The position numbers and the translations under genes were made by a program. A stretch of 23,806 bases of DNA from Escherichia coli (lineage in GTDB: Bacteria > Pseudomonadota > Gammaproteobacteria > Enterobacterales > Enterobacteriaceae). The stretch lies in the NCBI GenBank assembly GCA_025544715.1, contig GCA_025544715.1_4109.5; one strand, written 5' to 3'. Positions 3,452 through 14,051 of this stretch are shown here, piece after piece. Under the pieces are notes generated by a model, which made no database searches, was not told the DNA's origin, and was given only the letters and a program-made list of their open reading frames with translations. Each line of letters begins with the position of its first letter. Position 1 is the first letter of the stretch.

Positions 3452-3495
3452 AGACTCTAACTTGTAGTACTAACTTAACTAATAGGATATATACC

Positions 3496-3891
3496 ATGAT
3501 TACTAAATTCTACGCTACCCGTGAAGCTGCCCGTATTGTTGCACGCGAGGAAGGAGAAGCATTTAAAGACATGGGCAAAGATGCACCGAAAGGCCAACGC
3601 TGGGCCGTACAGTTCAAAGAAATCTCTGATATTGTGAATTCACCTGAGCCAGTACTAACAGCAGAAGAACAAAAACAAGCTGAAGAACTGGCGGCAATTC
3701 TTAACGCTCAAGATGAATTCGTCGCGGGTACTGATATCCAGGTTGTAGTAAATTCGAATGCATGGACTCACGCGGATCACCTGGCAAACCTGAAGCGTCC
3801 AAGTGAACTGATTCGCAACCAAAAAGAGATCCGTCATGACCGTAAGGGAAACCGTGTTACCGTATACAGTAAACGCCGCCAGGTTATCTAA
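3496..3891 (+). CDS. hypothetical protein (131 aa)
   Basis: AGGA RBS; consensus promoter upstream; followed by strong terminator. Confidence 0.7.
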   Translation: MITKFYATREAARIVAREEGEAFKDMGKDAPKGQRWAVQFKEISDIVNSPEPVLTAEEQKQAEELAAILNAQDEFVAGTDIQVVVNSNAWTHADHLANLKRPSELIRNQKEIRHDRKGNRVTVYSKRRQVI

Positions 3892-3913
3892 TAACTTGCA
3901 GTACTAACAACAC

Positions 3914-3938
3914 GGCGGGATCAGTTCCCGCCTTTTTT
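3914..3938 (+). terminator. rho-independent terminator
   Basis: GGCGGGA-TCAGT-TCCCGCC 7-bp GC-rich stem followed by TTTTTT. Confidence 0.8.
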
Positions 3939-3953
3939 ATAGGATAAACTAAA

Positions 3954-4208
3954 ATGATGAAGGTACAACTATCTAAAGATAATATCTTGCGGGTACACTA
4001 TAAAGCACCACAGAGAATCATCACAAAGGCCGTACAGCTTGCTAATGAGTTTATTAATGGTAGTCTATTACCCAGGAAGTTAAGCAACGGGAAACTACGT
4101 GTTATCGATGTAGACACTAACAACAGAATAGTAATTGAGAATACTGGAAAGATAAACCTTTATGAGCATCAACAGTATAATAAGAAAATAAAACTAATAT
4201 CACGTTGA
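3954..4208 (+). CDS. hypothetical protein (84 aa)
   Basis: AGGA RBS then ATG; lies directly after terminator, so expression may rely on read-through. Confidence 0.6.
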   Translation: MMKVQLSKDNILRVHYKAPQRIITKAVQLANEFINGSLLPRKLSNGKLRVIDVDTNNRIVIENTGKINLYEHQQYNKKIKLISR

Positions 4209-4233
4209 CAGTACTCAAATGTTTTAGTACTAT
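4205..4233 (+). promoter_or_regulatory. candidate sigma70-type promoter
   Basis: TTGACA (4205-4210) overlapping upstream stop codon, 17-nt spacer with two AGTACT, TACTAT (4228-4233). Confidence 0.5.
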
Positions 4234-4262
4234 GTATCTATACCAACACGGGGGAAAACAAA

Positions 4263-4505
4263 ATGATTACTTTAGAAAAACGTATCAAAGAAACTACATC
4301 GCTGGTGGAACTGTTAACTGTACTGAAATGCCGTACTACTCGGTTTAGTACACCGGACTTTATTAATATGGTTGATGTTAACGGTCGTTATCGCATTGCA
4401 GTAGAACAAGGAACAGCGAAAGTATTCAGTACTAAAAACACTAAGGAAGTGATTCACGCTGTAAGTGTTAAAAAAGTAGTTGCAATTGATAGTAAAGTAC
4501 TGTAA
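4263..4505 (+). CDS. hypothetical protein (80 aa)
   Basis: GGGGGA RBS then ATG. Confidence 0.6.
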   Translation: MITLEKRIKETTSLVELLTVLKCRTTRFSTPDFINMVDVNGRYRIAVEQGTAKVFSTKNTKEVIHAVSVKKVVAIDSKVL

Positions 4506-4536
4506 GATAGTTACATTAACTCAAGGAGAACATGCA

Positions 4537-5121
4537 ATGCGTCAATATACTAAATTCATCCGGTCCCTGTCAGAAATGGAAACTAATAAAGAGATCCTTT
4601 CAGCTTGTCGGTTAGCTGGTCTGGAAATCATCGGGGCCGGATCATCCCGTATAGTATTCGCTTTAAATGATCGGTTAGTGATTAAGGTCGCTAATTGTGA
4701 TGCGGGTGTAGAACAAAATGAAACTGAATGTAAGGTATGGAATTTTTTAGACTATGACCGCCCTCAGTTGAAACAGTTCTTTGCTAAGGTGCATATGCAT
4801 TTAAGCGATCCTGATAATATGTTTATTGTTATGGATCGTTTGAGTACTGCAAGCAAAGGCAGTGTAAAGCACGTTAACGCGTGCAACGAATTAAAGTACA
4901 ATATTAAACGTAATGCCATTGAACGCCAGCACCGCTTTGCTGATGCATTACAACACGTTGATGATACCTTATCAACCCTAACGTTAAGAGATATCAGAAA
5001 ACAGAACATCGGCCAGGATCGCAACGGCCTTATTAAAGTACTTGATTACGGTTTAACCCGCAATATCTGGAATCAGTACTATAAAAAGCGTGATGTAAAA
5101 GCCGTAACTATAACACGATAA
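4537..5121 (+). CDS. minimal protein-kinase-like protein (194 aa)
   Basis: AGGAGA RBS 7 nt upstream of ATG 4537 (ORF track extends to 4480). Gly-rich loop IGAGSSRIVF, then VIKV lysine, catalytic-loop-like DIRKQNIG (D-x-K-x-x-N) and DFG-like LDYG. Confidence 0.55.
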   Translation: MRQYTKFIRSLSEMETNKEILSACRLAGLEIIGAGSSRIVFALNDRLVIKVANCDAGVEQNETECKVWNFLDYDRPQLKQFFAKVHMHLSDPDNMFIVMDRLSTASKGSVKHVNACNELKYNIKRNAIERQHRFADALQHVDDTLSTLTLRDIRKQNIGQDRNGLIKVLDYGLTRNIWNQYYKKRDVKAVTITR

Positions 5122-5135
5122 AAAAGATTAAAAAT

Positions 5136-5157
5136 GGGATTGACTTCGGTCAGTCCC
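5136..5157 (+). terminator. terminator-like hairpin GGGATTGAC-TTCG-GTCAGTCCC
   Basis: 9-bp stem, UUCG tetraloop, U-containing tail; directly after stop of kinase-like gene. Confidence 0.5.
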
Positions 5158-5168
5158 TTTGCTATTAT
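5140..5168 (+). promoter_or_regulatory. promoter embedded in hairpin
   Basis: TTGACT, 17-nt spacer, TATTAT (5163-5168). Confidence 0.55.
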
Positions 5169-5261
5169 ATATTCATTGAGAGATAGCTCACTGACCCACA
5201 GGGTGCAGAAGTGTATCTATTATATAAGTATTCAGTACTGAAAACTATTTTTAAAAAGTAC

Positions 5262-5290
5262 TTGCAAACTATCTCAAATCGCGTATAATG
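5262..5290 (+). promoter_or_regulatory. sigma70-type promoter of the AAAAAGTACTTGCA class
   Basis: TTGCAA (5262-5267), 17-nt spacer, TATAAT (5285-5290). Confidence 0.6.
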
Positions 5291-5301
5291 TTTTATATCG
5301 A

Positions 5302-5323
5302 GAGGGGGAAATGGTTCTCCCTG
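5302..5323 (+). other. 5' leader stem-loop (GGGGGAA / TTCTCCC)
   Basis: inverted repeat with AATGG loop; the loop ATG is the spurious ORF-track start at 5311. Confidence 0.55.
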
Positions 5324-5343
5324 GTACATTAAGGAATAAAATC

Positions 5344-5565
5344 ATGACTACAATGACTTGCATTCACGCTTCAAACCTGCTTAATGATGCGGCCTTTAAT
5401 GTTGAAACAGAATATCAATGTTATCGGGATGAAAATAAAAAAGTTTTTGTAGTTGATAATAATGGTTTCCATATTGAATTGCAATCCGGTTTCACTGGCA
5501 TTGATGGTAAATCAGTATGGGGCGTACAGGACGATAAAGGCACATATCATTTTAAACGTAATTAA
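5344..5565 (+). CDS. hypothetical protein (73 aa)
   Basis: start moved from 5311 (hairpin loop) to ATG 5344, 8 nt after AAGGA. Confidence 0.6.
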   Translation: MTTMTCIHASNLLNDAAFNVETEYQCYRDENKKVFVVDNNGFHIELQSGFTGIDGKSVWGVQDDKGTYHFKRN

Positions 5566-5568
5566 GTA

Positions 5569-5596
5569 TTGACAAAGTATATCAGTACTGTATAAT
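5569..5596 (+). promoter_or_regulatory. sigma70-type promoter (consensus)
   Basis: TTGACAAAGTAT-ATCAGTACTG-TATAATAGTTTACATCAAGG, near-identical to 2992-3033. Confidence 0.7.
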
Positions 5597-5608
5597 AGTT
5601 TACATCAA

Positions 5609-5627
5609 GGGGAGAATAGTTCTCCCC
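5609..5627 (+). other. 5' leader stem-loop (GGGGAGAA / TTCTCCCC)
   Basis: perfect 8-bp inverted repeat, loop TAG. Confidence 0.6.
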
Positions 5628-5649
5628 GATACTAAAAGGAAACAAAATT

Positions 5650-5922
5650 ATGTCTAGCTACTCCGCTACTATGATCATTAAAGATATGAACGGTAATCCT
5701 ACTTCTGCTGGTGGATCATTTGGAAACATTAACTTAGATGGTCGGTTATCAATTGAATCAGCCATCAATGCAGCGAAAGAAGTTTTTAAGAATGAATGTA
5801 CTGTAAGCAAGCTGGATTATATGGGCTTCGCTATCGAAAAAACTAATCGTTTTGTGGACTACAAAAAACCACTGATGATTGATACTAACCTGAAAGCGAA
5901 CGAAGTGGAATACTTATTATGA
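5650..5922 (+). CDS. hypothetical protein (90 aa)
   Basis: AAGGA RBS then ATG. Confidence 0.65.
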   Translation: MSSYSATMIIKDMNGNPTSAGGSFGNINLDGRLSIESAINAAKEVFKNECTVSKLDYMGFAIEKTNRFVDYKKPLMIDTNLKANEVEYLL

Positions 5923-6110
5923 CAGTTGAAGAAGTTAAAAAAGTACTGGCAGTACTACGCTATCATAATCATTGCAAGGTTAAGAATGATCCTGATTATC
6001 TTGATTCATCCCTGGAAGAGGATACACTACAAGCAATAAGCCATATGCAAAAAATGCTTAAGCGTATGACTGAAAAGAATAGACCGGACTATATCGGAAA
6101 TAAAATTTAA
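5919..6110 (+). CDS. hypothetical protein (63 aa)
   Basis: ATGA overlap with upstream stop, suggesting translational coupling. Confidence 0.55.
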   Translation: MTVEEVKKVLAVLRYHNHCKVKNDPDYLDSSLEEDTLQAISHMQKMLKRMTEKNRPDYIGNKI

Positions 6111-6117
6111 AAAGTAC

Positions 6118-6145
6118 TTGCATTGTAGTTAGATTAACGTATAAT
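6118..6145 (+). promoter_or_regulatory. sigma70-type promoter of the AAAAAGTACTTGCA class
   Basis: TTGCAT (6118-6123), 16-nt spacer, TATAAT (6140-6145). Confidence 0.6.
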
Positions 6146-6157
6146 GTTTTACATAGA

Positions 6158-6178
6158 GCGGGGGAATAGTTCTCCCGC
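6158..6178 (+). other. 5' leader stem-loop (GCGGGGGAA / TTCTCCCGC)
   Basis: 9-bp stem with one G-U pair; same hairpin repeated at 7132-7152. Confidence 0.6.
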
Positions 6179-6196
6179 CAGTCCAGGAGATACACC

Positions 6197-6463
6197 ATGA
6201 ACACTATCGAAATCACTATCAATGCTCACGTATACGACAACGTAGTACTGCAAACTACTATGACCGCTCACGATACCAGTACTTTGCGGAATACCGTTGT
6301 AAGTGCTGTATGTGCTGCAATCGGTGATGTAGCCCTGGAAAATGCAGAACACATCAACAACGGTTTCACTATGTGCAAGCGTGATAACGCAAAACATATC
6401 ATCGTAGAAGGTTACGGCGGTGTAGAATATAACCTTTATATGAAAAAAGTACTTGCATCGTAA
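6197..6463 (+). CDS. hypothetical protein (88 aa)
   Basis: CCAGGAG RBS then ATG. Confidence 0.65.
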   Translation: MNTIEITINAHVYDNVVLQTTMTAHDTSTLRNTVVSAVCAAIGDVALENAEHINNGFTMCKRDNAKHIIVEGYGGVEYNLYMKKVLAS

Positions 6464-6480
6464 TTAAAACAAAGTATAAT
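6453..6480 (+). promoter_or_regulatory. sigma70-type promoter overlapping end of upstream CDS
   Basis: AAAAAGTACTTGCAT with TTGCAT at 6453-6458, 16-nt spacer, TATAAT (6475-6480). Confidence 0.55.
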
Positions 6481-6490
6481 GTTTTGCATA

Positions 6491-6509
6491 GGGGGAGATA
6501 TCCTCCCCC
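6491..6509 (+). other. 5' leader stem-loop (GGGGGAG / CTCCCCC)
   Basis: perfect 7-bp inverted repeat, loop ATATC. Confidence 0.6.
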
Positions 6510-6528
6510 ACTAATAAGGAGTACTAAA

Positions 6529-6753
6529 ATGGCTAATCATGATGACCTGATTCGGGAAGTAGCTAACCTGGCGGCAGAAAAGAAATCATTCGATTCTATC
6601 TATAACACCGCTCACCGTGATTCAGTACTGGCATCAACGCAAGATCAAAAAGATGAACTGATCGCCACCTATCATGAAGCATGGAAGTATTACCGCCAAT
6701 GGGAGAAAGAAGAAAGTGAGTCTACCATTGACGGCCTCAATAATCTAATCTAA
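6529..6753 (+). CDS. hypothetical protein (74 aa)
   Basis: ORF-track start 6484 is a TTG upstream of the hairpin; ATG 6529 follows AAGGAG RBS. Confidence 0.65.
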   Translation: MANHDDLIREVANLAAEKKSFDSIYNTAHRDSVLASTQDQKDELIATYHEAWKYYRQWEKEESESTIDGLNNLI

Positions 6754-6771
6754 AGTTTTATTTCAGTACTA

Positions 6772-6800
6772 TTGACAATACTGGATAGTACTGATATGAT
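6772..6800 (+). promoter_or_regulatory. sigma70-type promoter
   Basis: TTGACA (6772-6777), 17-nt spacer with AGTACTG, TATGAT (6795-6800). Confidence 0.55.
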
Positions 6801-6827
6801 AACTTTACTATCTAAAGGGGAAACATA

Positions 6828-7085
6828 ATGGAACAGTTCACACAATATCGGGTAAATCCTCAAGCTATGGCCTATGTAGAAGACCATAAAACATTACCAG
6901 TACTGCAACCAGTTAAAGGTCATATCTATCGTGCAATGTCATGGAGTAACGCCCAGGATGGATATACTACCGCCGCCGTGGGTATGTACTGCGGGAATGG
7001 TGAATGGTTTGATCCTAGTAATCCGGTAGCCATTGACAGTACTGAAAAAATGAAATGGGCCGACTACATCGAAGATATTTCATAA
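6828..7085 (+). CDS. hypothetical protein (85 aa)
   Basis: AAAGGGGA RBS then ATG. Confidence 0.65.
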   Translation: MEQFTQYRVNPQAMAYVEDHKTLPVLQPVKGHIYRAMSWSNAQDGYTTAAVGMYCGNGEWFDPSNPVAIDSTEKMKWADYIEDIS

Positions 7086-7091
7086 AACTAT

Positions 7092-7119
7092 TTGACAGTA
7101 CTAACCAGTAATGTATAAT
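7092..7119 (+). promoter_or_regulatory. sigma70-type promoter
   Basis: TTGACA (7092-7097), 16-nt spacer with AGTACT, TATAAT (7114-7119), GTTTTACATAGAG downstream. Confidence 0.65.
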
Positions 7120-7131
7120 GTTTTACATAGA

Positions 7132-7152
7132 GCGGGGGAATAGTTCTCCCGC
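7132..7152 (+). other. 5' leader stem-loop (GCGGGGGAA / TTCTCCCGC)
   Basis: identical to hairpin at 6158-6178. Confidence 0.6.
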
Positions 7153-7174
7153 CAATAGTTTGGAGTAAAACATT

Positions 7175-7375
7175 ATGTCTATCGCTATCGCCCTGGTTGA
7201 AGTACTGAAAGAAGCTAAAGCCAACCTTATCGATGTACAGATTAAGGAATTGCAAAATGGTTTAATCGGCTGTACTTGTACCGCTGGTGGAGCGGCAGAC
7301 TATCGGGAATTCGAATCACTTGAATCGATGGTCCGTTATCTTACCATGATCGTAGAAGATTGGAGAATCATCTAA
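7175..7375 (+). CDS. hypothetical protein (66 aa)
   Basis: GGAG RBS then ATG. Confidence 0.6.
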   Translation: MSIAIALVEVLKEAKANLIDVQIKELQNGLIGCTCTAGGAADYREFESLESMVRYLTMIVEDWRII

Positions 7376-7393
7376 CAAAAAAGAATAAAAAAA

Positions 7394-7415
7394 GGGATTG
7401 ACTCCGGTCAGTCCC
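7394..7415 (+). terminator. terminator-like hairpin GGGATTGAC-TCCG-GTCAGTCCC
   Basis: same hairpin as 2412-2433. Confidence 0.5.
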
Positions 7416-7426
7416 TTTGCTATTAT
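7398..7426 (+). promoter_or_regulatory. promoter embedded in hairpin
   Basis: TTGACT, 17-nt spacer, TATTAT (7421-7426). Confidence 0.55.
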
Positions 7427-7538
7427 ATACGCATAGACAAAAACTAGCCCACTGGGTGCAGGAGTGTATCCAAAATATATAGTTAATAACGGTGAGTAAC
7501 TATTTGCTGGTGGAGTGAAAACTATTAATAAAAAACTA

Positions 7539-7567
7539 TTGACAAAGTATATCAGTACTGCAATAAT
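7539..7567 (+). promoter_or_regulatory. candidate sigma70-type promoter
   Basis: TTGACAAAGTATATCAGTACTG then AATAAT; weaker -10 than sibling promoter at 5569. Confidence 0.5.
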
Positions 7568-7620
7568 GTATCTCGTAGGGCGGCAATGGTGCGACGGCCC
7601 ACAAAGTTAGGAGTAACATC

Positions 7621-7953
7621 ATGTCTACATCAATCGCTATCGTTAAAGCTTTCATCCGTACCAATGTTTCTTCTGTATTCATCGACGGTCTGGATCGGGA
7701 AGTAGAATACTCAATCATTATCGCACAGACTGCAAACGGTGCTCGGTACATCCTGAATGATAGTGAAGCAAATCACTACTACTTCACTAAAGCTACTGGC
7801 TTTAAACGCATCGATGCTGACGTAGTATACGCTAAGATGAATAAGCTGGTAGACAAGATTAACGCTAAAGGTACTATAGATTTACAGTACTGGAACGAAA
7901 CCGATCCAGAATACGGATCTCACCGCTACCTGAATCCAGGAATTAAAATGTAA
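7621..7953 (+). CDS. hypothetical protein (110 aa)
   Basis: TTAGGAG RBS then ATG; GC-rich leader hairpin upstream. Confidence 0.7.
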   Translation: MSTSIAIVKAFIRTNVSSVFIDGLDREVEYSIIIAQTANGARYILNDSEANHYYFTKATGFKRIDADVVYAKMNKLVDKINAKGTIDLQYWNETDPEYGSHRYLNPGIKM

Positions 7954-7960
7954 AAAGTAC

Positions 7961-7988
7961 TTGCATAGTACTTAGAATCAAGTATAAT
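7961..7988 (+). promoter_or_regulatory. sigma70-type promoter of the AAAAAGTACTTGCA class
   Basis: about 45 bp identical to promoter at 2527-2570. Confidence 0.6.
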
Positions 7989-8000
7989 GTTTTACATAGA

Positions 8001-8022
8001 GAGGGAGAAATGGTTCTCCCTC
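8001..8022 (+). other. 5' leader stem-loop (GAGGGAGAA / TTCTCCCTC)
   Basis: perfect 9-bp inverted repeat with ATGG loop; loop ATG is the spurious ORF-track start 8010. Confidence 0.6.
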
Positions 8023-8042
8023 CTAAATTAAGGAGTTTTATC

Positions 8043-8444
8043 ATGACCTTCTCAATCAATTCCTTCGCTGACGTTTTAGTACTGGCACGGACTTTCGGTA
8101 AAGATGCACTGGAGTACGCTGTAAGTAATGGCACTATCCAACCGGAACAATGCCGCATCATTGGAAACTGCAAACGTTGGGCGGTATCCAATACTATTGC
8201 ACTGGAAAACTTCAACGATGGCAACAATGAATATTCTGTTGATGTAGTATTCGAAGCCGTTGATCTCGGCGGTATCTATAACACTAACTTGAATGATGTG
8301 CGTATCGTTCGCACGGGGTTCGGTGCTTATGATGTATCTATCCGTGAAGCTATGGACAAGGGATACATTAGCAAGGACTTACTTGCTCACATCATGCAGC
8401 TGTGGACGGAACGTAACGAAGCACGTACTATCTTAGGGCTGTAA
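8043..8444 (+). CDS. hypothetical protein (133 aa)
   Basis: start moved from 8010 to ATG 8043, which follows AAGGAG RBS. Confidence 0.65.
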   Translation: MTFSINSFADVLVLARTFGKDALEYAVSNGTIQPEQCRIIGNCKRWAVSNTIALENFNDGNNEYSVDVVFEAVDLGGIYNTNLNDVRIVRTGFGAYDVSIREAMDKGYISKDLLAHIMQLWTERNEARTILGL

Positions 8445-8468
8445 GCAATACACATCACCAAACATCAT

Positions 8469-8488
8469 AGGCCGCTCTCTAGCGGCCT
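8469..8488 (+). other. GC-rich palindrome AGGCCGCT-CTCT-AGCGGCCT
   Basis: 8-bp perfect inverted repeat in AT-rich context; no U-run, so not a classic terminator. Confidence 0.35.
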
Positions 8489-8512
8489 TAACTATATCAG
8501 GAGGGCATACAT

Positions 8513-8722
8513 ATGTTCTATACCGTATACAGCGTTCTAGGTACTATTGCAGGCGTACATGATAACGTCAATGATGCTATGCGTACAGTACTGCAACAGG
8601 TTCCACTAAAGCCTAAGACTGTTAAGCAGATGACAGCACGACTAACCAGGGCGACGGATGGCGTGGAAGTATGGCAGGACTACGGGGATACACAGATAAT
8701 CGTTAGCGTAACGAAGGATTAA
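8513..8722 (+). CDS. hypothetical protein (69 aa)
   Basis: AGGAGG RBS then ATG. Confidence 0.6.
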   Translation: MFYTVYSVLGTIAGVHDNVNDAMRTVLQQVPLKPKTVKQMTARLTRATDGVEVWQDYGDTQIIVSVTKD

Positions 8723-8750
8723 TGCGTAAAGGGATCTAGTACTGATTCAG

Positions 8751-8816
8751 AAAAAAGTCAAGGCGTTTTTAAAATTATGCGTTAAAAAAATGCATAGGTA
8801 ATCCCTTGACTTTTTT
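8751..8816 (+). other. 13-bp perfect inverted repeat flanking a 40-bp spacer; possible bidirectional terminator or operator
   Basis: AAAAAAGTCAAGG (8751-8763) and CCTTGACTTTTTT (8804-8816) are exact reverse complements; inner TATGC/GCATA pair. Confidence 0.35.
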
Positions 8817-8913
8817 GAAATAAAAGGGATTGGACTATGGCAAAATGCGTAGGGGGCTAAAGGGCGGGTAACCTTAGCGACTTCGATAAAGGGGTATTAC
8901 GAATAAAATGTTA

Positions 8914-8941
8914 TTGACTTTTTATATGAATCGTATAAAAT
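8914..8941 (+). promoter_or_regulatory. candidate promoter for the paralog array
   Basis: TTGACT (8914-8919), 16-nt spacer, TAAAAT (8936-8941). Confidence 0.5.
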
Positions 8942-8971
8942 ATGATTGATATTAATTTTAAGGGAGTCCCT

Positions 8972-9169
8972 ATGCATATTTTAACTCAAGCAGAACACCA
9001 CGAAAGACTTATCAATAACATGGCTATGATAATGTATAAGTCACATGAACGTGGTATGTCCTATAAGCGTGAATTAGTTATGGCACTATTCATTGGGACT
9101 AACTTTCAGGAAAGGTATGTCAACGATTGGATTTGGTATTTAATTGAAGATATAACGAGTAAACTATGA
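8972..9169 (+). CDS. family-1 paralog 1 (LGTNYQ-motif small protein)
   Basis: AAGGGAG RBS then ATG 8972 (ORF-track start 8942 is upstream of the RBS); C-terminal LFIGTNFQERYV...IEDITSKL. Confidence 0.65.
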   Translation: MHILTQAEHHERLINNMAMIMYKSHERGMSYKRELVMALFIGTNFQERYVNDWIWYLIEDITSKL

Positions 9170-9366
9170 AAATGCGTAAATTAACCGAAAAAGAATATCA
9201 AGCACTGTTACGTAAAAACTACACAAAGATTTATAATACAGACTCACACGTAGAAAGAATGGAGTTATACCTTTTGATTACATTGGGAACTAACTATCAG
9301 GATGCATGGGTAACGAAATATGTGGATACATTGAAAAATAAAACATTGTCCACGAGGAAACAATGA
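9166..9366 (+). CDS. family-1 paralog 2
   Basis: ATGA overlap; ITLGTNYQDAWV motif. Confidence 0.7.
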   Translation: MKMRKLTEKEYQALLRKNYTKIYNTDSHVERMELYLLITLGTNYQDAWVTKYVDTLKNKTLSTRKQ

Positions 9367-9572
9367 AAACTATAACACGAACCCAATCATTCGGACTTAT
9401 CTTGAAATACATGGACTTAATGGTGGATATCAGCAAAGACCTGCCTAAAACTGAAATTGAAGTTGCAAGAGCAGAGATCCGCATGTTGGCTGTACTGAAC
9501 ACAAACCATCAGGAAGATTATGTTGAAGAATGGATTCATTTTTTAATAGAAGATATTAAGAGTAAATTATGA
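9363..9572 (+). CDS. family-1 paralog 3
   Basis: ATGA overlap; AVLNTNHQEDYV...IEDIKSKL. Confidence 0.7.
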   Translation: MKTITRTQSFGLILKYMDLMVDISKDLPKTEIEVARAEIRMLAVLNTNHQEDYVEEWIHFLIEDIKSKL

Positions 9573-9784
9573 TTATTATAGAAAACTCATATCAATATAC
9601 TGAACGCATTGCTGCCAGGCAACTTGAAATCCTCATAATATACGAAGAGACTTCTGATTTAAACTTAGCTGAGGTATTGGAAAATGAAATACTTTTGGGT
9701 GCATTCTTGGGAACTGACTATCAGGAGTATTATGAGCAAAAGTATTTGTCATCTCTTGAGAAATACATCAGGAGCAAATTATGA
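9569..9784 (+). CDS. family-1 paralog 4
   Basis: ATGA overlap; AFLGTDYQEYY motif. Confidence 0.7.
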   Translation: MIIIENSYQYTERIAARQLEILIIYEETSDLNLAEVLENEILLGAFLGTDYQEYYEQKYLSSLEKYIRSKL

Positions 9785-9993
9785 TTTTTTTAACACCTGA
9801 AGAATATAAGAAACGTTTTAATTCTGTCCAGACTGAAATATTACTTATATACCTTTCAAATGCAGACCTTAACTTATCAAGGGCAATGGAGAAGGATTTA
9901 CTTATGGGTGCATTTTTGGATACAGACTTTCAGGAGTATTATGTAGGGAAATACTTAATTGAACTTCAGAACTACATTAAGAGTAAACTATGA
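9781..9993 (+). CDS. family-1 paralog 5
   Basis: ATGA overlap; AFLDTDFQEYYV motif. Confidence 0.7.
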   Translation: MIFLTPEEYKKRFNSVQTEILLIYLSNADLNLSRAMEKDLLMGAFLDTDFQEYYVGKYLIELQNYIKSKL

Positions 9994-10208
9994 AACATTT
10001 AAGTAATATAGAGAAGAATAAAATTATCATAGCTGCAATAAACAAATATTTTACACTTCAACAAAAAGAATGTTTATCTATAAGGGAACACAGAATAAAC
10101 ACCACCGATGTACGCATGATGGCTGTACTGGGGACTAACTTCCAAGAAGGCTATGTTCATGAGCACATCGTTGCACTCACTAATTACATAATGGACAAAT
10201 GTAAATGA
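9990..10208 (+). CDS. family-1 paralog 6
   Basis: ATGA overlap; AVLGTNFQEGYV motif. Confidence 0.7.
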   Translation: MKHLSNIEKNKIIIAAINKYFTLQQKECLSIREHRINTTDVRMMAVLGTNFQEGYVHEHIVALTNYIMDKCK

Positions 10209-10417
10209 AACGTCTTAGCAGCAGAGAATATTCTGCTATATTACATAAAGCTTTACCTGAGTTACAAAACATCGAGACGACCATCCCTGAGCCAACGCGA
10301 GGTGTACTGTTTACGGATTGTATGTTATTACACTTCATGGGAACTAATCACCAAGAATCTATAGTATCATCTCTCATCAACGCACTTAAACTTGAAATAA
10401 GAGACAAATGTAAATGA
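10205..10417 (+). CDS. family-1 paralog 7
   Basis: ATGA overlap; HFMGTNHQESIV motif. Confidence 0.7.
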   Translation: MKRLSSREYSAILHKALPELQNIETTIPEPTRGVLFTDCMLLHFMGTNHQESIVSSLINALKLEIRDKCK

Positions 10418-10671
10418 AACACTTGACAGACGATGAATATTCACTTAGAATTCGAAAGCTCACCCCAGAAGCAAGAGTAATCTACGATGACGATGCACTT
10501 TCATGGGTAGAGATGAAAGTTAAAGTTAATGAGCTATGGTTGCTGTACTTTCTGGGGACTAACTATCAAGAGAAATATTGCACCGATTACATTGAACAAC
10601 TAATGGAACTTATACAGGAAAAACTAAATGATCGAATTGTGGAAAAATATGAAAACTTTATCAAGCACTGA
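10414..10671 (+). CDS. family-1 paralog 8 with C-terminal extension
   Basis: ATGA overlap; YFLGTNYQEKY motif; usual junction stop is missing, giving a 13-aa extension overlapping the next gene. Confidence 0.65.
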   Translation: MKHLTDDEYSLRIRKLTPEARVIYDDDALSWVEMKVKVNELWLLYFLGTNYQEKYCTDYIEQLMELIQEKLNDRIVEKYENFIKH

Positions 10672-10900
10672 GTATCAAACTGCCCTATTCTCTTTACTAA
10701 ACACCCTTCGCAAGAACAATGAACTTTATCCTTCCCCTGAGAATGATGTAGTTAATGGAGACGTGCTCCTTCTTAAATTCATTGGAACTGATAAACAAGA
10801 TACCTTCACTGATCGTTATATCAATGCACTAAGAAACCTTGTAGCATATAAAACCCGCAAGGCCCAAAGAGAATGGAAGAGACAATGCGACAAAGACTAA
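10628..10900 (+). CDS. family-1 paralog 9
   Basis: KFIGTDKQDTF motif; family-like N-terminus begins at in-frame ATG 10649, so the true start may be 10649. Confidence 0.6.
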   Translation: MIELWKNMKTLSSTEYQTALFSLLNTLRKNNELYPSPENDVVNGDVLLLKFIGTDKQDTFTDRYINALRNLVAYKTRKAQREWKRQCDKD

Positions 10901-11136
10901 ATCACAAAATGTATTGTAAACTATTACAATCACTGGCACAGAAACACTATGATACAGTATCTGAAATATTACCCTATGATATCATGCGTTTAATTCATAG
11001 TGAGGCCGAGATGCTTGTACTGATGAGAGGGACTGATAAAACAGCAATAGCCAGATCGATTGAGCAATATATTGATGCACACTGCCAACACATGAGAACC
11101 GAAATCTGGAGGAAAGAGAATGAAACTCCTGAGTAA
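10873..11136 (+). CDS. family-1 paralog 10 (divergent)
   Basis: LMRGTDKTAIARSIEQYI keeps G-T-D and spacing but loses the Q; overlapping frame. Confidence 0.55.
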   Translation: MEETMRQRLNHKMYCKLLQSLAQKHYDTVSEILPYDIMRLIHSEAEMLVLMRGTDKTAIARSIEQYIDAHCQHMRTEIWRKENETPE

Positions 11137-11353
11137 TTATGAATATTATAGTCTGTTGCGAACTATACAAGCAAAAGTTTCTAGTATTTCTTTAAACAAA
11201 TCTATTGCACAAGAGGACAAATGTGTTATAATGGCTGAAATGAAGTTAGCTCTCTTCGTTGGAACAAACTATCAAAACATCTACACTGACGTATTGTTAG
11301 CCAGCCTACGCAACAAGGTGTTATCCAAAAATGAGAAAATTACAAGGTGTTGA
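11120..11353 (+). CDS. family-1 paralog 11
   Basis: MKLLSNYEYYSLLR N-terminus; LFVGTNYQNIY motif. Confidence 0.65.
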   Translation: MKLLSNYEYYSLLRTIQAKVSSISLNKSIAQEDKCVIMAEMKLALFVGTNYQNIYTDVLLASLRNKVLSKNEKITRC

Positions 11354-11549
11354 ATATATTAAGCTTCTGAAAACCTGTGCAAGCAGAAGGAGAAAGATTC
11401 AAAATGATAAAAGCATCTCTATTGACCTTAAGCACGCACTAGTAACTGAACTCTATGTAGGTGCACTCTTAGGCACAGACTATCAACAAATGTATGTAGA
11501 CATGTGGATTGAGGCTCTACTGAAAGAGGTTAAAAGTAAATGCAAATGA
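11331..11549 (+). CDS. family-1 paralog 12
   Basis: ALLGTDYQQMYV...KSKCK. Confidence 0.65.
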   Translation: MRKLQGVEYIKLLKTCASRRRKIQNDKSISIDLKHALVTELYVGALLGTDYQQMYVDMWIEALLKEVKSKCK

Positions 11550-11785
11550 TTAATTTAACTTATATTGAATATCAAAAACGTTTAAATGCATCCAGAGATA
11601 TAAGGATTCAAATATTCAATAACAAAAGATTGAAGCCTGATATCAGGAAAATCAAAATCATAGAAGCAGAGTTGTGCAACTTTTTAGGGACGAACTATCA
11701 GGCAGGTAAGGTAAAAAACTATCTTAGAGAACTCATGAATAGTATTGAAAATAAATGCAAGGATAATGAATATGAAAATGATTAA
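11540..11785 (+). CDS. family-1 paralog 13
   Basis: NFLGTNYQAGKV motif; in-frame ATG 11546 would give the usual ATGA overlap. Confidence 0.65.
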   Translation: MQMINLTYIEYQKRLNASRDIRIQIFNNKRLKPDIRKIKIIEAELCNFLGTNYQAGKVKNYLRELMNSIENKCKDNEYEND

Positions 11786-12011
11786 ATTATCTCAAGCAAA
11801 ATATAAAGAACGCCTGGTGAAAATTGCACCTGGACTTAATGAAATCCATCACGGAGAAGTCATTAAACATGGAAATAAGATGATTATGAAACTTGAGTTA
11901 AAGGTGGGTGCATTCATAGGAACAAACTATCAGGAGTATTATGTAGATGAATACATAATCGCACTTAAGAGATACATTGGAAGAAAACTATATCTACAAA
12001 CTAAAGAATAG
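11772..12011 (+). CDS. family-1 paralog 14
   Basis: ORF-track start 11745 is TTG; ATG 11772 follows AAGGA; AFIGTNYQEYYV motif. Confidence 0.6.
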   Translation: MKMIKLSQAKYKERLVKIAPGLNEIHHGEVIKHGNKMIMKLELKVGAFIGTNYQEYYVDEYIIALKRYIGRKLYLQTKE

Positions 12012-12040
12012 TATTGAAAATAAATGCGAGGATAATGAAC

Positions 12041-12304
12041 ATGAAAATGATTAATTTAAGTAAAGATGAATATACCGAGCGTATGGCAAAAATCTCAACT
12101 AAACGTAACACACTCTATCACAACCCAGAAATTCAACACAGTAAGAAAATGATTATGATGCGTGAGTTAAAGATGGGAGTATTCTTAGGAACAAACTATC
12201 AAGATACAGAAGTAAATCGCTTAATTTCGGAGTTACTAATGGAAATCAGAGGTAAGCTGTACTTTCATCAAATTACCCAACCACTGAGGTGTACTAAGAA
12301 ATGA
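12041..12304 (+). CDS. family-1 paralog 15
   Basis: ORF-track start 12014 is TTG; ATG 12041 follows GAGGA; VFLGTNYQDTEV motif. Confidence 0.6.
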   Translation: MKMINLSKDEYTERMAKISTKRNTLYHNPEIQHSKKMIMMRELKMGVFLGTNYQDTEVNRLISELLMEIRGKLYFHQITQPLRCTKK

Positions 12305-12516
12305 TCAACATCACATTGCAAGAAAGATTCATCCGAATCAACTATGCAATTACCAAATTAGATGCTACTATAGGATTCCAAAGTCTACCATATAAAACCA
12401 GATTGTTATTAGAGTGTGAAGCTAAGTTGGGTGTACTGTTAGGGACGCAACACCAACAACGATATGTGGAAATCTGGATTGACCTTTTAACCCAAAATAT
12501 ATATGAGAGAATGTAA
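12301..12516 (+). CDS. family-1 paralog 16
   Basis: ATGA overlap; VLLGTQHQQRYV motif. Confidence 0.7.
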   Translation: MINITLQERFIRINYAITKLDATIGFQSLPYKTRLLLECEAKLGVLLGTQHQQRYVEIWIDLLTQNIYERM

Positions 12517-12753
12517 ATGCAAAATGAAATGATATACTTAACGAATGAAGAATTTCAAGAGAAGATGTTAAAAACCAAAAACATTAATCTTAAGTTCGTT
12601 CCAAATCAATCAATATCTGAAGTATCTGCAAATGTATTGTTTCAGAAGCTACCATACTTTCTTGGAACTGATAAACAAGAATTTATGGTTCAAAATATGA
12701 TTGAACATCTTATGATGAGTATTAAGGAAAAAGTAAATGCAAAAACAAAATGA
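12517..12753 (+). CDS. family-1 paralog 17
   Basis: starts right after upstream stop; YFLGTDKQEFMV motif; N-terminus MQNEMIYLT shared with next gene. Confidence 0.65.
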   Translation: MQNEMIYLTNEEFQEKMLKTKNINLKFVPNQSISEVSANVLFQKLPYFLGTDKQEFMVQNMIEHLMMSIKEKVNAKTK

Positions 12754-13003
12754 AATGATATACTTAACACCTGCTGAGTTAACAGAAAGACTAGTTAAAT
12801 CCAGAAGATATACAAATCAACTTCCTCACAACCCAAACCAGACCCCAGCCGAAAGGAGTGCAGAAGTTTTATTCCAATCACTACCATACCTTCTTGGAAC
12901 TAATAGACAAGAGTATCATATCGAACGTATAATTAGATATCTTAAAATTACTATTCAGGAAAAGATACATGAACAAGAATATAAAAATCTTTACGGTCAA
13001 TGA
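12737..13003 (+). CDS. family-1 paralog 18
   Basis: YLLGTNRQEYHI motif; N-terminus MQKQNEMIYLT. Confidence 0.65.
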   Translation: MQKQNEMIYLTPAELTERLVKSRRYTNQLPHNPNQTPAERSAEVLFQSLPYLLGTNRQEYHIERIIRYLKITIQEKIHEQEYKNLYGQ

Positions 13004-13226
13004 ATATCATGATATTATAATGAAGACGAATATTGTAAATTCTAAAATTTCAAATACCAAGTTCATCCTTGAACATACATTAGAAGAACGACAATTGATA
13101 TTAGTTGAAGCAAAACTTCTTGCACTATTAGGTTCTAACTATCAAGACGAGTACATAAGAAAACTAATATACCTTTTAACTAAACATATCAGAAAAAAGA
13201 CACATGAAACACTTGACAGACGATGA
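12969..13226 (+). CDS. family-1 paralog 19
   Basis: ALLGSNYQDEYI motif. Confidence 0.65.
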   Translation: MNKNIKIFTVNEYHDIIMKTNIVNSKISNTKFILEHTLEERQLILVEAKLLALLGSNYQDEYIRKLIYLLTKHIRKKTHETLDRR

Positions 13227-13434
13227 ACATGGGCTTATAGTAATGGATGTAATCAACATCGAATACAAAAAGTTGATACGCTACCGTTGTTATGAAGATA
13301 AGCAACTAGTTCTAGCAGAACAGAAGTTGTTTCGACTCTTAAACACAAACTACCAAGCACAATACGAAGAATCGTATATGTACCTTTTGGCGAGGAAAGC
13401 AAAAAGAGATTATGAAAATTTTAAGCAAAGGTGA
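13204..13434 (+). CDS. family-1 paralog 20
   Basis: RLLNTNYQAQY motif; first 24 nt identical to paralog 8 (ATGAAACACTTGACAGACGATGAA). Confidence 0.65.
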   Translation: MKHLTDDEHGLIVMDVINIEYKKLIRYRCYEDKQLVLAEQKLFRLLNTNYQAQYEESYMYLLARKAKRDYENFKQR

Positions 13435-13639
13435 TTCAGTAATATTACTTATAGAGAGTTCAAGTCAATTCTTAAACATATCACTGTCTGATATAGATGA
13501 AGATGATAAAGAAGTACTGAGAGCAGATTTAAGAGTACTGTTACATCTCGGAACAAACCTACAAGAAAGATATGTAGAGTACTACATTGATGAACTTAAA
13601 GAATCAGTACTGAGAAAATGCAAATGCAAATGCGAATGA
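13412..13639 (+). CDS. family-1 paralog 21
   Basis: HLGTNLQERYV motif; C-terminus KCKCKCE encoded by AAATGC hexamer repeat. Confidence 0.65.
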   Translation: MKILSKGDSVILLIESSSQFLNISLSDIDEDDKEVLRADLRVLLHLGTNLQERYVEYYIDELKESVLRKCKCKCE

Positions 13640-13851
13640 TTACCGACGAAGAATACCTAACAATCATAAATGGACTGTTTTTGAAGCTCTTCGTCATTAA
13701 CACATCAGATATACCAGATATGGATAAAATTATTAAGAGAAATGAAATCTATGTTCTAGCTACCCTGGGAACTAACTATCAAGAATACGATATTAATGAT
13801 TATATTAAGACACTTAAACGAGCGATTGAACTAAAATGCCAAAACCACTAG
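13618..13851 (+). CDS. family-1 paralog 22
   Basis: ATLGTNYQEYDI motif; start may be ATG 13636 (ATGA overlap). Confidence 0.6.
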   Translation: MQMQMRMITDEEYLTIINGLFLKLFVINTSDIPDMDKIIKRNEIYVLATLGTNYQEYDINDYIKTLKRAIELKCQNH

Positions 13852-14051
13852 GAACAGCAGAATACATTGAACTCATGGGATTACACTTCTCATCCTTTCA
13901 GAAACTTATGCGAGAATCAAAGAATGATTTAGAATATACCATCAGAGGTTCAGATTTAAGAATGCTTCTCACCCTAGACACAGATTCCCAAGAGCGATTT
14001 GTCAATGAGCACATTAGAGCACTTTTAATGGAAATTCAAAGTAAACTATGA
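13836..14051 (+). CDS. family-1 paralog 23
   Basis: TLDTDSQERFV motif. Confidence 0.65.
   Translation: MPKPLGTAEYIELMGLHFSSFQKLMRESKNDLEYTIRGSDLRMLLTLDTDSQERFVNEHIRALLMEIQSKL

What the first reader, a model, noticed from the sequence alone, without database searches (positions are those of the whole stretch)
8723..8941. Boundary region between the promoter-rich zone and array 1 with inverted and direct repeats
This 220-bp gap contains a perfect 13-bp inverted repeat (AAAAAAGTCAAGG / CCTTGACTTTTTT) around a 40-bp spacer with an inner TATGC/GCATA pair, several ATGCGTA repeats (8722, 8777, 8845) and AAAGGGAT repeats (8728, 8823), then the only promoter seen before the array. It marks a switch in gene type and composition and could be a terminator, an operator or a recombination boundary.
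Basis: seen in the sequence. Interest (0 to 1): 0.5.

Follow-up and report, generated by a model that had tools for sequence, protein, structure and literature searches.

The report
Jumbo phage terminal-repeat end site

Summary
The 13-bp inverted repeat is the longest perfect one in the window, and 0 of 300 shuffles reach it.

The window is an Asteriusvirus (121Q/PBECO4-type, Rak2-like jumbo coliphage). The gap is the junction between the ~20-21.5 kb direct terminal repeat (DTR) and unique DNA. Six separately deposited relatives end at the same nucleotide, window 8874|8875 (...GGGTAACCT|TAGCGAC...). One of them was mapped by PhageTerm plus restriction digests.

The same position in a conserved module (GGTAATCCCTTGACT, TTGGACTATG, 33 nt, CT|TAGC) is the DTR or record end in Klebsiella fENko-Kae01, Pectobacterium CBB and two Erwinia phages. 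In three lineages where both boundaries can be read, both boundaries carry TAGC/TAGT immediately outside the repeat. This gives the inverted arrangement GCTA|DTR|TAGC.

Synteny breaks 12-15 nt past the cut. GC content drops there. A conserved sigma-70-like promoter (8914-8941) then drives an array of phrog_4148 paralogues.

Best reading: a cis-acting end-forming site, plausibly cut by staggered nicks as in the T7 model. That mechanism is inferred, not shown. A terminator role for the inverted repeat is possible but unproven. The boundary itself is already annotated in relatives; its anatomy is not described in the papers I read.

The parts
8513..8722 (+). Last gene of the terminal repeat (69 aa, phrog_17833, function unknown).
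   Evidence: ORF list. PHROG hit with E = 1e-37. Its homologue is the last CDS before the record end in six relatives, always 152 nt from the end.
8737..8745 (+). TAGTACTGA. This is the last copy of the AGTACT motif that saturates the repeat part of the window.
   Evidence: There are 53 AGTACT in 1-8874 against 17 in 8875-23806, and none between 8744 and 13512. TAGTACTGA with up to 1 mismatch gives 53 matches against 6.6 expected. CAGTACT also lies 14-19 nt outside the left boundary in MJ, Kae01 and CBB.
8751..8816 (.). Perfect 13-bp inverted repeat (arms 8751-8763 and 8804-8816) enclosing a 40-nt interior with an inner hairpin. It is a possible transcription terminator or DNA hairpin.
   Evidence: The AGTCAA/TTGACT core recurs as an inverted repeat in A4, Kae01, Kaldavass and Hallingskeid with loops of 7-40 nt. 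It is not an inverted repeat in CBB, L031, L033, L055 or L063.
8787..8811 (+). Block conserved across genera: AAAATGCATAGGTAATCCCTTGACT.
   Evidence: This is one of the few segments of window 5000-13000 that aligns at DNA level with jumbo contigs of other genera (8787-8840, 85-87% identity). Alignment.
8828..8839 (+). GATTGGACTATG box (core TTGGACTATG, 8830-8839). Exactly 33 nt separate it from CTTAGC.
   Evidence: It is unique in the window. The same box at the same 33-nt distance from the cut is found in Kae01, L031, L033, L055 (Yersinia fHe-Yen9-04), L063 and L127. Diverged forms occur in EJP2, A4, CBB and the Erwinia phages.
8857..8874 (+). Terminal block CTAAAGGGCGGGTAACCT. Base 8874 is the last base of the terminal repeat, i.e. 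the right physical genome end.
   Evidence: The records of MJ, CRJP21, E9.1, BF17, fEgEco12 and G17 (reverse complement) all end at this nucleotide. The DTR feature of vB_Ec-M-J ends here. CBB, Kae01, Kaldavass and Hallingskeid end at the homologous base...GGCCAGTAAYGCT|.
8875..8900 (+). Conserved flank just outside the repeat: TAGCGACTTCGAT (8875-8887) and GGGGTATTAC (8891-8900).
   Evidence: GTAA-TTAGC is the most conserved island of the gap in divergent Asteriusvirus genomes. Synteny breaks only after about 8887. TAGC, or T-TAGT, starts the outward flank at all six boundaries examined. GGGGTA recurs further out on most of those flanks.
8914..8941 (+). Sigma-70-like promoter TTGACT-16-TAAAAT. 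It is the first promoter of the unique region, 40 nt beyond the repeat end.
   Evidence: The -35 element and spacing are kept in MJ, CRJP21, EJP2, Turkey5 and JNE01, with -10 reading TATTAT, TATAAT or TAAAAT. It is deleted in the SD phages and replaced in BF17.
8972..9169 (+). First gene of the tandem array of phrog_4148 paralogues (65 aa; ribosome-binding site AAGGGAG at 8960-8966). The array runs to about 14725.
   Evidence: Relatives annotate a 198-nt CDS at the homologous position.

Best explanation
The gap is the junction between the long direct terminal repeat (DTR, about 20-21.5 kb) and the unique part of an Asteriusvirus (Rak2-like jumbo myovirus) genome.

Shown:
- In relatives the right end of virion DNA lies between window bases 8874 and 8875 (...GGGCGGGTAACCT|TAGCGACTTCGAT...).
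- About 190 bp around that point (roughly 8751-8900) form a module conserved across at least five genera.
- The module's boxes are GGTAATCCCTTGACT, then TTGGACTATG, then 33 nt, then CT|TAGC, then GGGGTA on the outside.
- A conserved sigma-70-like promoter at 8914-8941 precedes the phrog_4148 gene array.

Inferred:
- The module is the cis-acting site that tells the packaging/processing nuclease where to make the right end.
- The left boundary of the repeat carries the same TAGC/TAGT motif just outside the repeat but in the opposite orientation, giving 5'-GCTA|DTR|TAGC-3'.
- The most economical mechanism is therefore one enzyme acting at both edges in mirror orientation.
- I favour staggered single-strand nicks (GCTA^ on the strand whose 5' end becomes the DTR end). 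Strand-displacement synthesis through the repeat then gives each daughter genome a full copy. This is Watson's model for T7, cited from my own knowledge.
- The 13-bp inverted repeat lies inside the repeat, 58 nt before the end. It may also terminate transcription of the last repeat gene.
- The promoter restarts transcription into the array.
For: Identity of the window
- It is 95-96.5% identical to 121Q, slurp01, G17 and related phages.

Position of the end in the genus
- The DTR feature of vB_Ec-M-J (1-21525) ends 152 nt after the homologue of ORF 8513-8722.
- Six records from different laboratories end at the identical nucleotide.
- Five records start at the identical left end, AGTAGGCAGAGG.
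- The fEgEco12 termini were set by PhageTerm and confirmed by restriction digests (PMC13070987).
- PhageTerm gave Sharanji a DTR of 20,668 bp.

Other genera
- Kae01: the PhageTerm DTR of 19,736 bp ends at TTGGACTATG-N35-|TAGC, i.e. CT|TAGC.
- CBB: the 'redundant repeat' 1-22456, set by read depth and PFGE, ends GTAACGCT|TAGCGAGG.
- Kaldavass and Hallingskeid: the records end at GTAATGCT|.
- Serratia BF and the Erwinia pEa phages: the module sits 19.3-20 kb from the record start, and the BF record starts at the same left terminus as Kae01 and CBB.

Conservation
- GTAA-TTAGC is the invariant island in divergent Asteriusvirus genomes.
- The only DNA-level hit to phage EJP2 in window 8500-9170 spans 8796-8958, essentially the intergenic gap.
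- Cross-genus local BLAST finds 8787-8840.
- The distance from the stop codon to the end is kept at 145-165 nt, except for an 80-nt duplication in Turkey5.
- Synteny breaks 12-15 nt outside the cut.

Mirror motif
- Reading outward, the six boundary flanks start TAGCGAC, T-TAGTGAC, TAGCCAC, TAGCGGA, TAGCGAG and TAGCGGA.
- A rough post-hoc joint probability is about 6e-5.
Against: - No read-start or end-mapping data exist for the phage this window comes from. The end is placed by homology only.
- Record ends could in part have been harmonised by authors orienting their genomes on earlier entries.
- One relative, BAU.Micro_ELP-22, ends 128 nt earlier. UE-S1 reports an 8.3-kb repeat, which the fEgEco12 authors consider mis-assigned.
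- The Asteriusvirus left boundary fits the TAGY rule only with a 1-nt offset.
- The shared motif is only 4 nt long and was noticed after the fact.
- None of the right-end boxes (TTGGACTATG, GGTAATCCCTT) is found at the left boundary, so the two ends are not simply two copies of one site.
- Nothing here shows which protein binds, whether cuts are nicks or double-strand breaks, or whether the ends are blunt.
- The inverted repeat is not kept as an inverted repeat in several genera.
Confidence: 0.75

Rival explanations
1. Ordinary intergenic control region. The inverted repeat is an intrinsic terminator for the last repeat gene and 8914-8941 is the next promoter. The conservation reflects transcription signals, and the genome end merely happens to fall between them.
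For: - The composite hairpin is stable: -43 kcal/mol for 8723-8880, z = -2.97.
- Its 3' arm ends in T6.
- EJP2, A4, Turkey5 and JNE01 carry different hairpins at the same place, some followed by T-runs.
- The promoter is conserved within the genus.
Against: - Conservation peaks at the cut itself (GTAA-TTAGC) and at TTGGACTATG, not at the hairpin or the promoter.
- The cut position is identical in five lineages.
- The promoter can be deleted (SD phages) or replaced (BF17) while the block up to about 8887 is kept.
- The terminator scan does not call this site.
- A4's hairpin has no T-run on the + strand.
- This rival is compatible with, rather than exclusive of, the best explanation.
Confidence: 0.15
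2. T5-like injection stop or pause signal. If DNA entry were to start at the left end, structured DNA at the inner edge of the left repeat would halt it, so that only the promoter-rich repeat genes are expressed first.
For: - The repeat part of the window carries six perfect consensus sigma-70 promoters and many small genes, like an immediate-early region.
- The strongest inverted repeat of the window sits at its inner edge.
- In T5 the stop signal lies near the inner end of the left repeat and is rich in inverted repeats (my own knowledge, not tested here).
Against: - There is no evidence that these phages inject in two steps.
- The structured region is only about 70 nt, against more than 1 kb in T5.
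- The inverted repeat is not conserved as such across genera.
- Which end enters first is unknown.
Confidence: 0.07
3. Recombination or mobile-element boundary. The repeats mark the edge of an inserted or exchangeable cassette.
For: Gene content changes immediately downstream in BF17, the SD phages and A4. GC content shifts here.
Against: - The breakpoints lie outside a block that is itself conserved and that coincides with mapped genome ends.
- No integrase, transposase or target-site duplication is seen.
- The flux is better explained as a consequence of a recombinogenic DNA end and a paralogue array next to it.
Confidence: 0.05
4. Operator. The 13-bp arms bind a dimeric regulator that controls the neighbouring promoters.
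For: The repeat has perfect symmetry, and each arm contains a -35-like TTGACT.
Against: - A 40-nt spacing is atypical for an operator.
- The loop length varies from 7 to 40 nt among lineages, and the symmetry is lost in CBB, L031, L033, L055 and L063.
- No -10 element lies at a usable distance from either TTGACT (sequence).
Confidence: 0.04

Closest known systems
Annotated direct terminal repeats of Asteriusvirus and other Rak2-like jumbo phages (vB_Ec-M-J 21,525 bp; fEgEco12 20,993 bp; Sharanji 20,668 bp; fENko-Kae01 19,736 bp; CBB 22,456 bp)
   Same: This is the same element. The window's 8874|8875 is homologous, to the nucleotide, with the right edge of those repeats.
   Different: The papers I read report only the lengths of the repeats. 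None describes the sequence at the edges. The conserved boxes, the conserved cut CT|TAGC and the mirror GCTA|...|TAGC arrangement are, as far as my searches show, undescribed.
Phage T7/T3 terminal repeat and concatemer-junction processing (Watson's staggered-nick model; hairpin intermediates reported by Chung, Nardone and Hinkle). Cited from my own knowledge.
   Same: Both have exact, non-permuted ends and a direct terminal repeat that must be duplicated from a single copy in the concatemer. The mirror-image motif at the two edges fits nicks on opposite strands followed by fill-in.
   Different: The repeat here is about 130 times longer (20 kb against 160 bp). There is no sequence similarity. 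The phages belong to the T4-like lineage by portal phylogeny (CBB paper), whereas T4 itself packages by the headful. No biochemical data exist.
Phage T5 long terminal repeat (about 10 kb) with pre-early genes and an injection stop signal. Cited from my own knowledge.
   Same: Both have a long DTR packed with small genes behind strong host-type promoters, and structured non-coding DNA at the inner edge of the repeat.
   Different: Two-step DNA transfer has not been shown for these phages. The structured region here is far shorter. There is no homology.
Intrinsic (Rho-independent) terminators
   Same: A stable hairpin with a T-run follows a gene, and a promoter follows further on.
   Different: The interior is 40 nt, the outer stem is A/T-rich, and the T-run is paired within the stem. 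The consensus scan does not call it.

Membership tests
Right boundary of the long direct terminal repeat of Rak2-like/Asteriusvirus phages | The sequence is homologous to genomes whose DTR is annotated or mapped, and the boundary falls inside the feature. | tested here: met
   The window is 95-96.5% identical to its relatives. The DTR feature of vB_Ec-M-J ends at the homologue of 8874. Six records end there.
Right boundary of the long direct terminal repeat of Rak2-like/Asteriusvirus phages | DNA upstream of the boundary is present at both genome ends, and DNA downstream is present only once. | tested here: met
   This holds in relatives. The right-end copies carry the same genes up to the 69-aa gene plus 152 nt and then stop. 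It cannot be tested for the window's own genome, because only one copy is given.
Right boundary of the long direct terminal repeat of Rak2-like/Asteriusvirus phages | The physical end of virion DNA is mapped experimentally at this nucleotide in this phage. | not testable with these tools
   It is known only for relatives: fEgEco12 by PhageTerm plus restriction, Kae01 by PhageTerm, CBB by read depth plus PFGE.
T7-type end formation (same nuclease site at both repeat edges, staggered nicks, fill-in) | A shared recognition or cleavage motif lies at both edges of the repeat in a consistent orientation. | tested here: inconclusive
   Five of six boundaries show TAGC immediately outside the repeat, and one shows T-TAGT, all in mirror orientation. 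The rough post-hoc p is about 6e-5. The motif is short, and the other right-end boxes are absent at the left edge.
T7-type end formation (same nuclease site at both repeat edges, staggered nicks, fill-in) | Concatemers carry one repeat per junction, with strand-specific nicks and displacement synthesis. | not testable with these tools
   This needs intracellular DNA analysis.
Intrinsic terminator | A G+C-rich stem with a short loop, followed directly by an unpaired T-run. | tested here: not met
   There is no + strand call at 8751-8822 in the scan. The stem encloses 40 nt, and T6 pairs with A6.
Intrinsic terminator | Transcript 3' ends map at the site. | not testable with these tools
   No transcript data are available.
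Sigma-70 promoter (8914-8941) | -35 and -10 hexamers at 16-18 nt spacing, conserved in relatives and placed upstream of a gene. | tested here: met
   TTGACT-16-TAAAAT scores 10/12. It is conserved in MJ, CRJP21, EJP2, Turkey5 and JNE01. The gene starts at 8972. Promoter activity itself was not tested.
T5-type injection stop signal | DNA entry pauses at the inner end of the left repeat until pre-early proteins are made. | not testable with these tools
   Only the position and the promoter-rich nature of the repeat resemble T5.
Palindromic operator | Symmetry and spacing of the two half-sites are kept in relatives. | tested here: not met
   The loop varies from 7 to 40 nt, and the symmetry is absent in CBB, L031, L033, L055 and L063.
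Known RNA family (Rfam) | The score reaches the family's gathering threshold. | tested here: not met
   The only hit is bglG-cis-reg at 28.4 bits against a threshold of 80.

The most novel reading that the evidence does not exclude
The conserved module plus its mirror-image GCTA|...|TAGC bracket is the recognition system of a site-specific nicking step. That step would produce 20-kb terminal repeats in Rak2-like jumbo phages by strand-displacement synthesis, i.e. a T7-style mechanism scaled up about 130-fold in a T4-related lineage. The boxes TTGGACTATG and GGTAATCCCTTGACT would be binding sites for a so far unidentified end-recognition protein.
Probability: 0.25. Interest if true: 0.6.

Novelty: new member of a known kind. 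Interest (0 to 1): 0.4.

Why it matters
How phages make long exact terminal repeats (T5, SPO1, Rak2-like jumbo phages) is still not understood.

For this jumbo-phage group the ends had been reported only as repeat lengths. This analysis shows three things:
- The right end lies at one conserved nucleotide, inside a box-structured module shared by Escherichia, Klebsiella, Pectobacterium, Erwinia, Yersinia and Serratia phages.
- Both edges of the repeat carry the same short motif in mirror orientation.
- That gives concrete, mutable targets for testing end formation.

There is also a practical use. The motif TTGGACTATG-N33-CTTAGC locates the repeat edge in the many deposited genomes of this group that were assembled without their second repeat.

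Upstream is the promoter-dense, twice-present early region. Downstream is unique DNA that starts with a paralogue array.

Tried and rejected
- Protein-based locus search. Using the 69-aa last repeat gene as query found only 121Q in IMG/VR, which was too shallow to help.
- Pattern scan of IMG/VR with TTGGACTATG-N28-40-CTTAGC. It returned 101 stretches. Most of the N=33 hits are an unrelated coding family (TTGGACTATGTAGTCGCCTTGATATCC...). Only L031, L033/L078, L055, L063/L100, L127 and L047 are true jumbo-phage homologues.
- Search for long motifs shared by the left and right boundary regions. Only TTAGTACTGAAT stood out, and AGTACT turned out to be enriched throughout the early region. It is therefore not specific to the ends.
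- Reading TTGACT (8806) or TTGGAC (8831) as -35 elements. No acceptable -10 lies at 16-18 nt in the window or in other genera, so this was rejected (sequence).
- A MotA-box reading of TGCTTA in other genera. There is no -10 at the right distance and the box is absent in Asteriusvirus, so this was rejected.
- The inner TATGC/GCATA pair. It is not conserved in the MJ/fEgEco12 group, so it is probably not functional in itself.
- Rfam. Only a sub-threshold bglG-cis-reg hit was found.
- Literature searches on how long DTRs are processed. They returned nothing specific.
- AGTACT density as a marker of the repeat edge in other genera. The density does not drop there in L055, L063 or L033, so it is not a general boundary marker.

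Full report
**1. The observation**

- The 13-bp perfect inverted repeat has arms at 8751-8763 and 8804-8816 with 40 nt between them.
- It is the longest perfect inverted repeat with a loop of 3-60 nt in the whole window. None of 300 dinucleotide shuffles of the 219-bp region reaches 13; the mean longest is 7 and the maximum 11.
- AAAGGGAT occurs at 8728 and 8823.
- ATGCGTA occurs at 8722 and 8845. The copy at 8777 is ATGCGTT.
- The longer box AATGCRTARRG occurs only twice in the window, both here, against 0.12 expected for the whole window.
- A sigma-70-like site TTGACT-16-TAAAAT lies at 8914-8941.
- GC content is 0.388 before 8874 and 0.326 after it.

**2. What the window is**

Window 8000-10000 is 95-96.5% identical to Escherichia phages of the genus Asteriusvirus, such as 121Q, PBECO4, slurp01, G17 and Sharanji. 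These are Rak2-like jumbo myoviruses of about 350 kb. Records of 366-384 kb hold this stretch twice and records of about 348-352 kb hold it once. The longer records therefore include a second copy of a long terminal repeat.

**3. The gap holds the edge of the terminal repeat**

- In vB_Ec-M-J a 'Direct Terminal Repeats' feature spans 1-21525. It ends 152 nt after the stop of the homologue of window ORF 8513-8722.
- I fetched the far ends of the long records. In vB_Ec-M-J, CRJP21, E9.1, BF17, fEgEco12 and (reverse complement) G17, the last gene is that same 69-aa gene. The record stops exactly 152 nt after it.
- Aligned to the window, all six end at the same nucleotide...GGGCGGGTAACCT. This is window 8874. 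The internal copies continue with TAGCGACTTCGAT.
- Five of the records also start with the identical left end, AGTAGGCAGAGGAAGTCTGCC.
- The fEgEco12 ends were found with PhageTerm and confirmed by restriction digests, giving a repeat of 20,993 bp (PMC13070987).
- PhageTerm gave Sharanji 20,668 bp. G17 showed about 20 kb of doubled coverage.
- One record disagrees: BAU.Micro_ELP-22 stops 128 nt earlier. The 8.3-kb repeat of UE-S1 is regarded as mis-assigned by the fEgEco12 authors.

**4. Conservation within the genus**

- In the divergent members EJP2, Turkey5, JNE01 and A4, the gap is largely rewritten. The invariant island is GTAA..TTAGC, straddling the cut.
- The next best conserved elements are the box GATTGGACTATG, the -35 element of the promoter, and the ribosome-binding site.
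- For EJP2 the only DNA-level match to window 8500-9170 is 8796-8958, essentially the intergenic gap and not the flanking genes.
- The distance from the stop codon to the inferred end is kept: 152, 153, 152, 154 and 145 nt. Turkey5 has 225 nt because of an 80-nt tandem duplication.
- Synteny breaks just outside the cut:
  - BF17 diverges after TAGCGACTTCGA and carries an extra 122-aa gene.
  - The Salmonella SD phages delete about 75 bp, including the promoter, after TTCGATAAA.
  - A4 has a different gene.

**5. Conservation across genera**

- Klebsiella phage fENko-Kae01 has about 29% ANI to fEgEco12 and a PhageTerm repeat of 19,736 bp. Its repeat ends ...TTGATTGGACTATG-N35-|TAGCCACCCG. It has the same box, the same distance and the same CT|TAGC cut, 145 nt after the last repeat gene.
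- A pattern scan of IMG/VR found the module in five further jumbo contigs. One is Yersinia phage fHe-Yen9-04. All have exactly 33 nt between TTGGACTATG and CTTAGC.
- A multiple alignment gives the module as: (A)AAAAGT.., then AAAATGCRTAGGTAATCCCTTGACTTTTCT, about 12 nt, TTGGACTATG, about 10 T-rich nt, CTAAAGGSCRGTAAYSCT|TAGCG, a few nt, GGGGTAT.
- BLAST with the module found it in Pectobacterium CBB, Cronobacter GAP32, Xanthomonas XbC2, Erwinia, Serratia and Yersinia phages.
- In CBB the annotated 'redundant repeat' 1-22456 was set from read depth and PFGE. It ends ...GGCCAGTAACGCT|TAGCGAGG.
- The records of Erwinia phages Kaldavass and Hallingskeid stop at ...GTAATGCT|.
- In Serratia BF and the Erwinia pEa phages the module lies 19.3-20 kb from the record start.
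- Mapped or deposited ends thus fall on the same module position in five lineages.

**6. The other edge of the repeat**

The left boundaries read as follows:
- CBB: ...cagtactgttgaccccttccGCTA|TATCCG
- Kae01: ...cagtacttacccccttccGCTA|TATCTT
- vB_Ec-M-J: ...cagtactgatatgtcaCTAA|AGTAGG

Serratia BF's record begins TATCTTCTCC, the same left terminus.

Read outward from the repeat, all six edges begin with TAGC or, once, T-TAGT:

| Lineage | Right edge | Left edge |
|---|---|---|
| Asteriusvirus | TAGCGAC | T-TAGTGAC |
| Kae01 | TAGCCAC | TAGCGGA |
| CBB | TAGCGAG | TAGCGGA |

- GGGGTA follows 3-11 nt further out on most flanks.
- TAGC occurs at 0.002 per position in the window. Counting the right edge as the reference and the two kinds of left edge as independent tests, a rough post-hoc probability is about 6e-5.
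- The right-end boxes TTGGACTATG and GGTAATCCCTT are not present at the left edge.

**7. How it most likely works**

Shown:
- The position of the end in relatives.
- The conserved module.
- The mirror motif.
- The promoter consensus.
- The gene families on the two sides.

Inferred:
- The module is the cis site that positions end formation.
- A concatemer with one repeat per junction cannot be cut through both strands at both edges without losing the repeat. The mirror arrangement GCTA|DTR|TAGC therefore fits Watson's staggered-nick scheme for T7 (my own knowledge).
- In that scheme a nick after GCTA falls on the top strand at the left edge and on the bottom strand at the right edge.
- The two 3'-OH ends are then extended through the repeat with strand displacement, so each neighbour receives a complete repeat.
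- I give the identity as the repeat edge and end site 0.75. I give the nick model about 0.25.

The inverted repeat:
- It folds into a stable composite hairpin (-43 kcal/mol for 8723-8880, z = -2.97).
- Other lineages have different hairpins in the same place.
- The AGTCAA/TTGACT core recurs in A4, Kae01, Kaldavass and Hallingskeid with loops of 7-40 nt.
- It is absent as an inverted repeat in CBB, L031, L033, L055 and L063.
- It does not meet the terminator consensus.
- A terminator or DNA-hairpin role is therefore possible but unproven.

The promoter at 8914-8941 is conserved in the genus. It precedes the gene at 8972-9169, the first of an array in which all 13 tested genes belong to phrog_4148.

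**8. Comparison with what is known**

- The repeat and its length are published for several relatives, so the boundary itself is not new.
- The papers I read give no description of the sequence at the edges.
- The CBB paper states that the physical nature of the genome was still unknown.
- The closest mechanistic models are T7 (exact ends, repeat duplication) and T5 (long repeat with early genes, structured inner edge). Both are cited from my own knowledge. Neither shares sequence with this module.
- Rfam has nothing above threshold here.

**9. Verdict**

- This is a new member of a known kind. It is a DTR end site, already annotated by coordinate in relatives, with a previously undescribed conserved anatomy.
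- Interest is 0.4.

Noticed in passing
window 1-8874, e.g. 1696, 3007, 5584, 6787, 7554 and 8738: The palindrome AGTACT, often as (T/C)AGTACTG, is about 5 times denser in the repeat part (53 copies in 8.9 kb) than in the rest (17 in 14.9 kb). It is far above chance: TAGTACTGA with up to 1 mismatch gives 53 matches against 6.6 expected. It often sits in the spacer of the consensus promoters (TTGACA-N9-AGTACTG-TATAAT). It could be an extended promoter element or a regulator site. In other genera it is dense on both sides of the module.
   Followed up: partly
window 2409-2444, 5136-5168, 7391-7426: There are three near-identical hairpin-plus-promoter elements, AAAGGGATTGACTCCGGTCAGTCCCTTT-GCTATTATAT. 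The -35 TTGACT lies inside a 9-12 bp stem and the -10 just after it. They are reminiscent of the promoter stem-loops of T4-type phages (my own knowledge). Parts align at DNA level with jumbo phages of other genera.
   Followed up: no
window 1681, 2652, 2992, 3423, 5569, 7092: Six perfect 12/12 sigma-70 consensus promoters (TTGACA-16/17-TATAAT) lie on the + strand within 5.5 kb of the repeat. This fits an immediate-early region read by host polymerase.
   Followed up: no
window 8972-14725: A tandem array of about 26 overlapping genes of 65-96 aa starts 98 nt after the repeat end. All 13 tested genes belong to phrog_4148 (function unknown, shared GTN(F/Y)Q motif). Copy content differs between relatives.
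   Followed up: partly
window 8469-8488: A G+C-rich 8-bp hairpin AGGCCGCT-ctct-AGCGGCCT lies between ORFs 8010-8444 and 8513-8722. The scan calls it terminator-like only on the minus strand.
   Followed up: no
L010 850-1100 and L011 1-150 (vB_Ec-M-J left boundary; not in the window): At least seven copies of (A/T)GTAATCA flank the left genome end on both sides. The first 26 nt of the genome form a near-palindrome (AGTAGGCAGA-ggaag-TCTGCCGTACT). Kae01 has TATCTTCT-ctgtata-AGAAGATA at the same place. These could be binding-site arrays and a terminal hairpin.
   Followed up: partly
L017 1412-1636 (phage Turkey5): An 80-nt tandem duplication inside the module repeats the end of the last repeat gene plus its hairpin.
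   Followed up: no
L006 2946-3001 (BAU.Micro_ELP-22 right end): This record ends at ...TAGTACTGAT, 128 nt short of the end shared by six other records. It is probably a differently estimated repeat edge.
   Followed up: no
IMG/VR loci L030, L034-L036, L051 and others: About 35 metagenomic contigs share TTGGACTATGTAGTCGCCTTGATATCC...TTTCTTAGC with the same 33-nt spacing. This is a conserved stretch of an unrelated phage group that matched my pattern by coincidence.
   Followed up: no
window 8785-8807 and 8960-8982: A 23-nt imperfect inverted repeat (87% complementary), AAAAAATGCATAGGTAATCCCTT / AAGGGAGTCCCTATGCATATTTT, brackets the genome end. Its right arm overlaps the ribosome-binding site and start codon of the first array gene (I1).
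   Followed up: no
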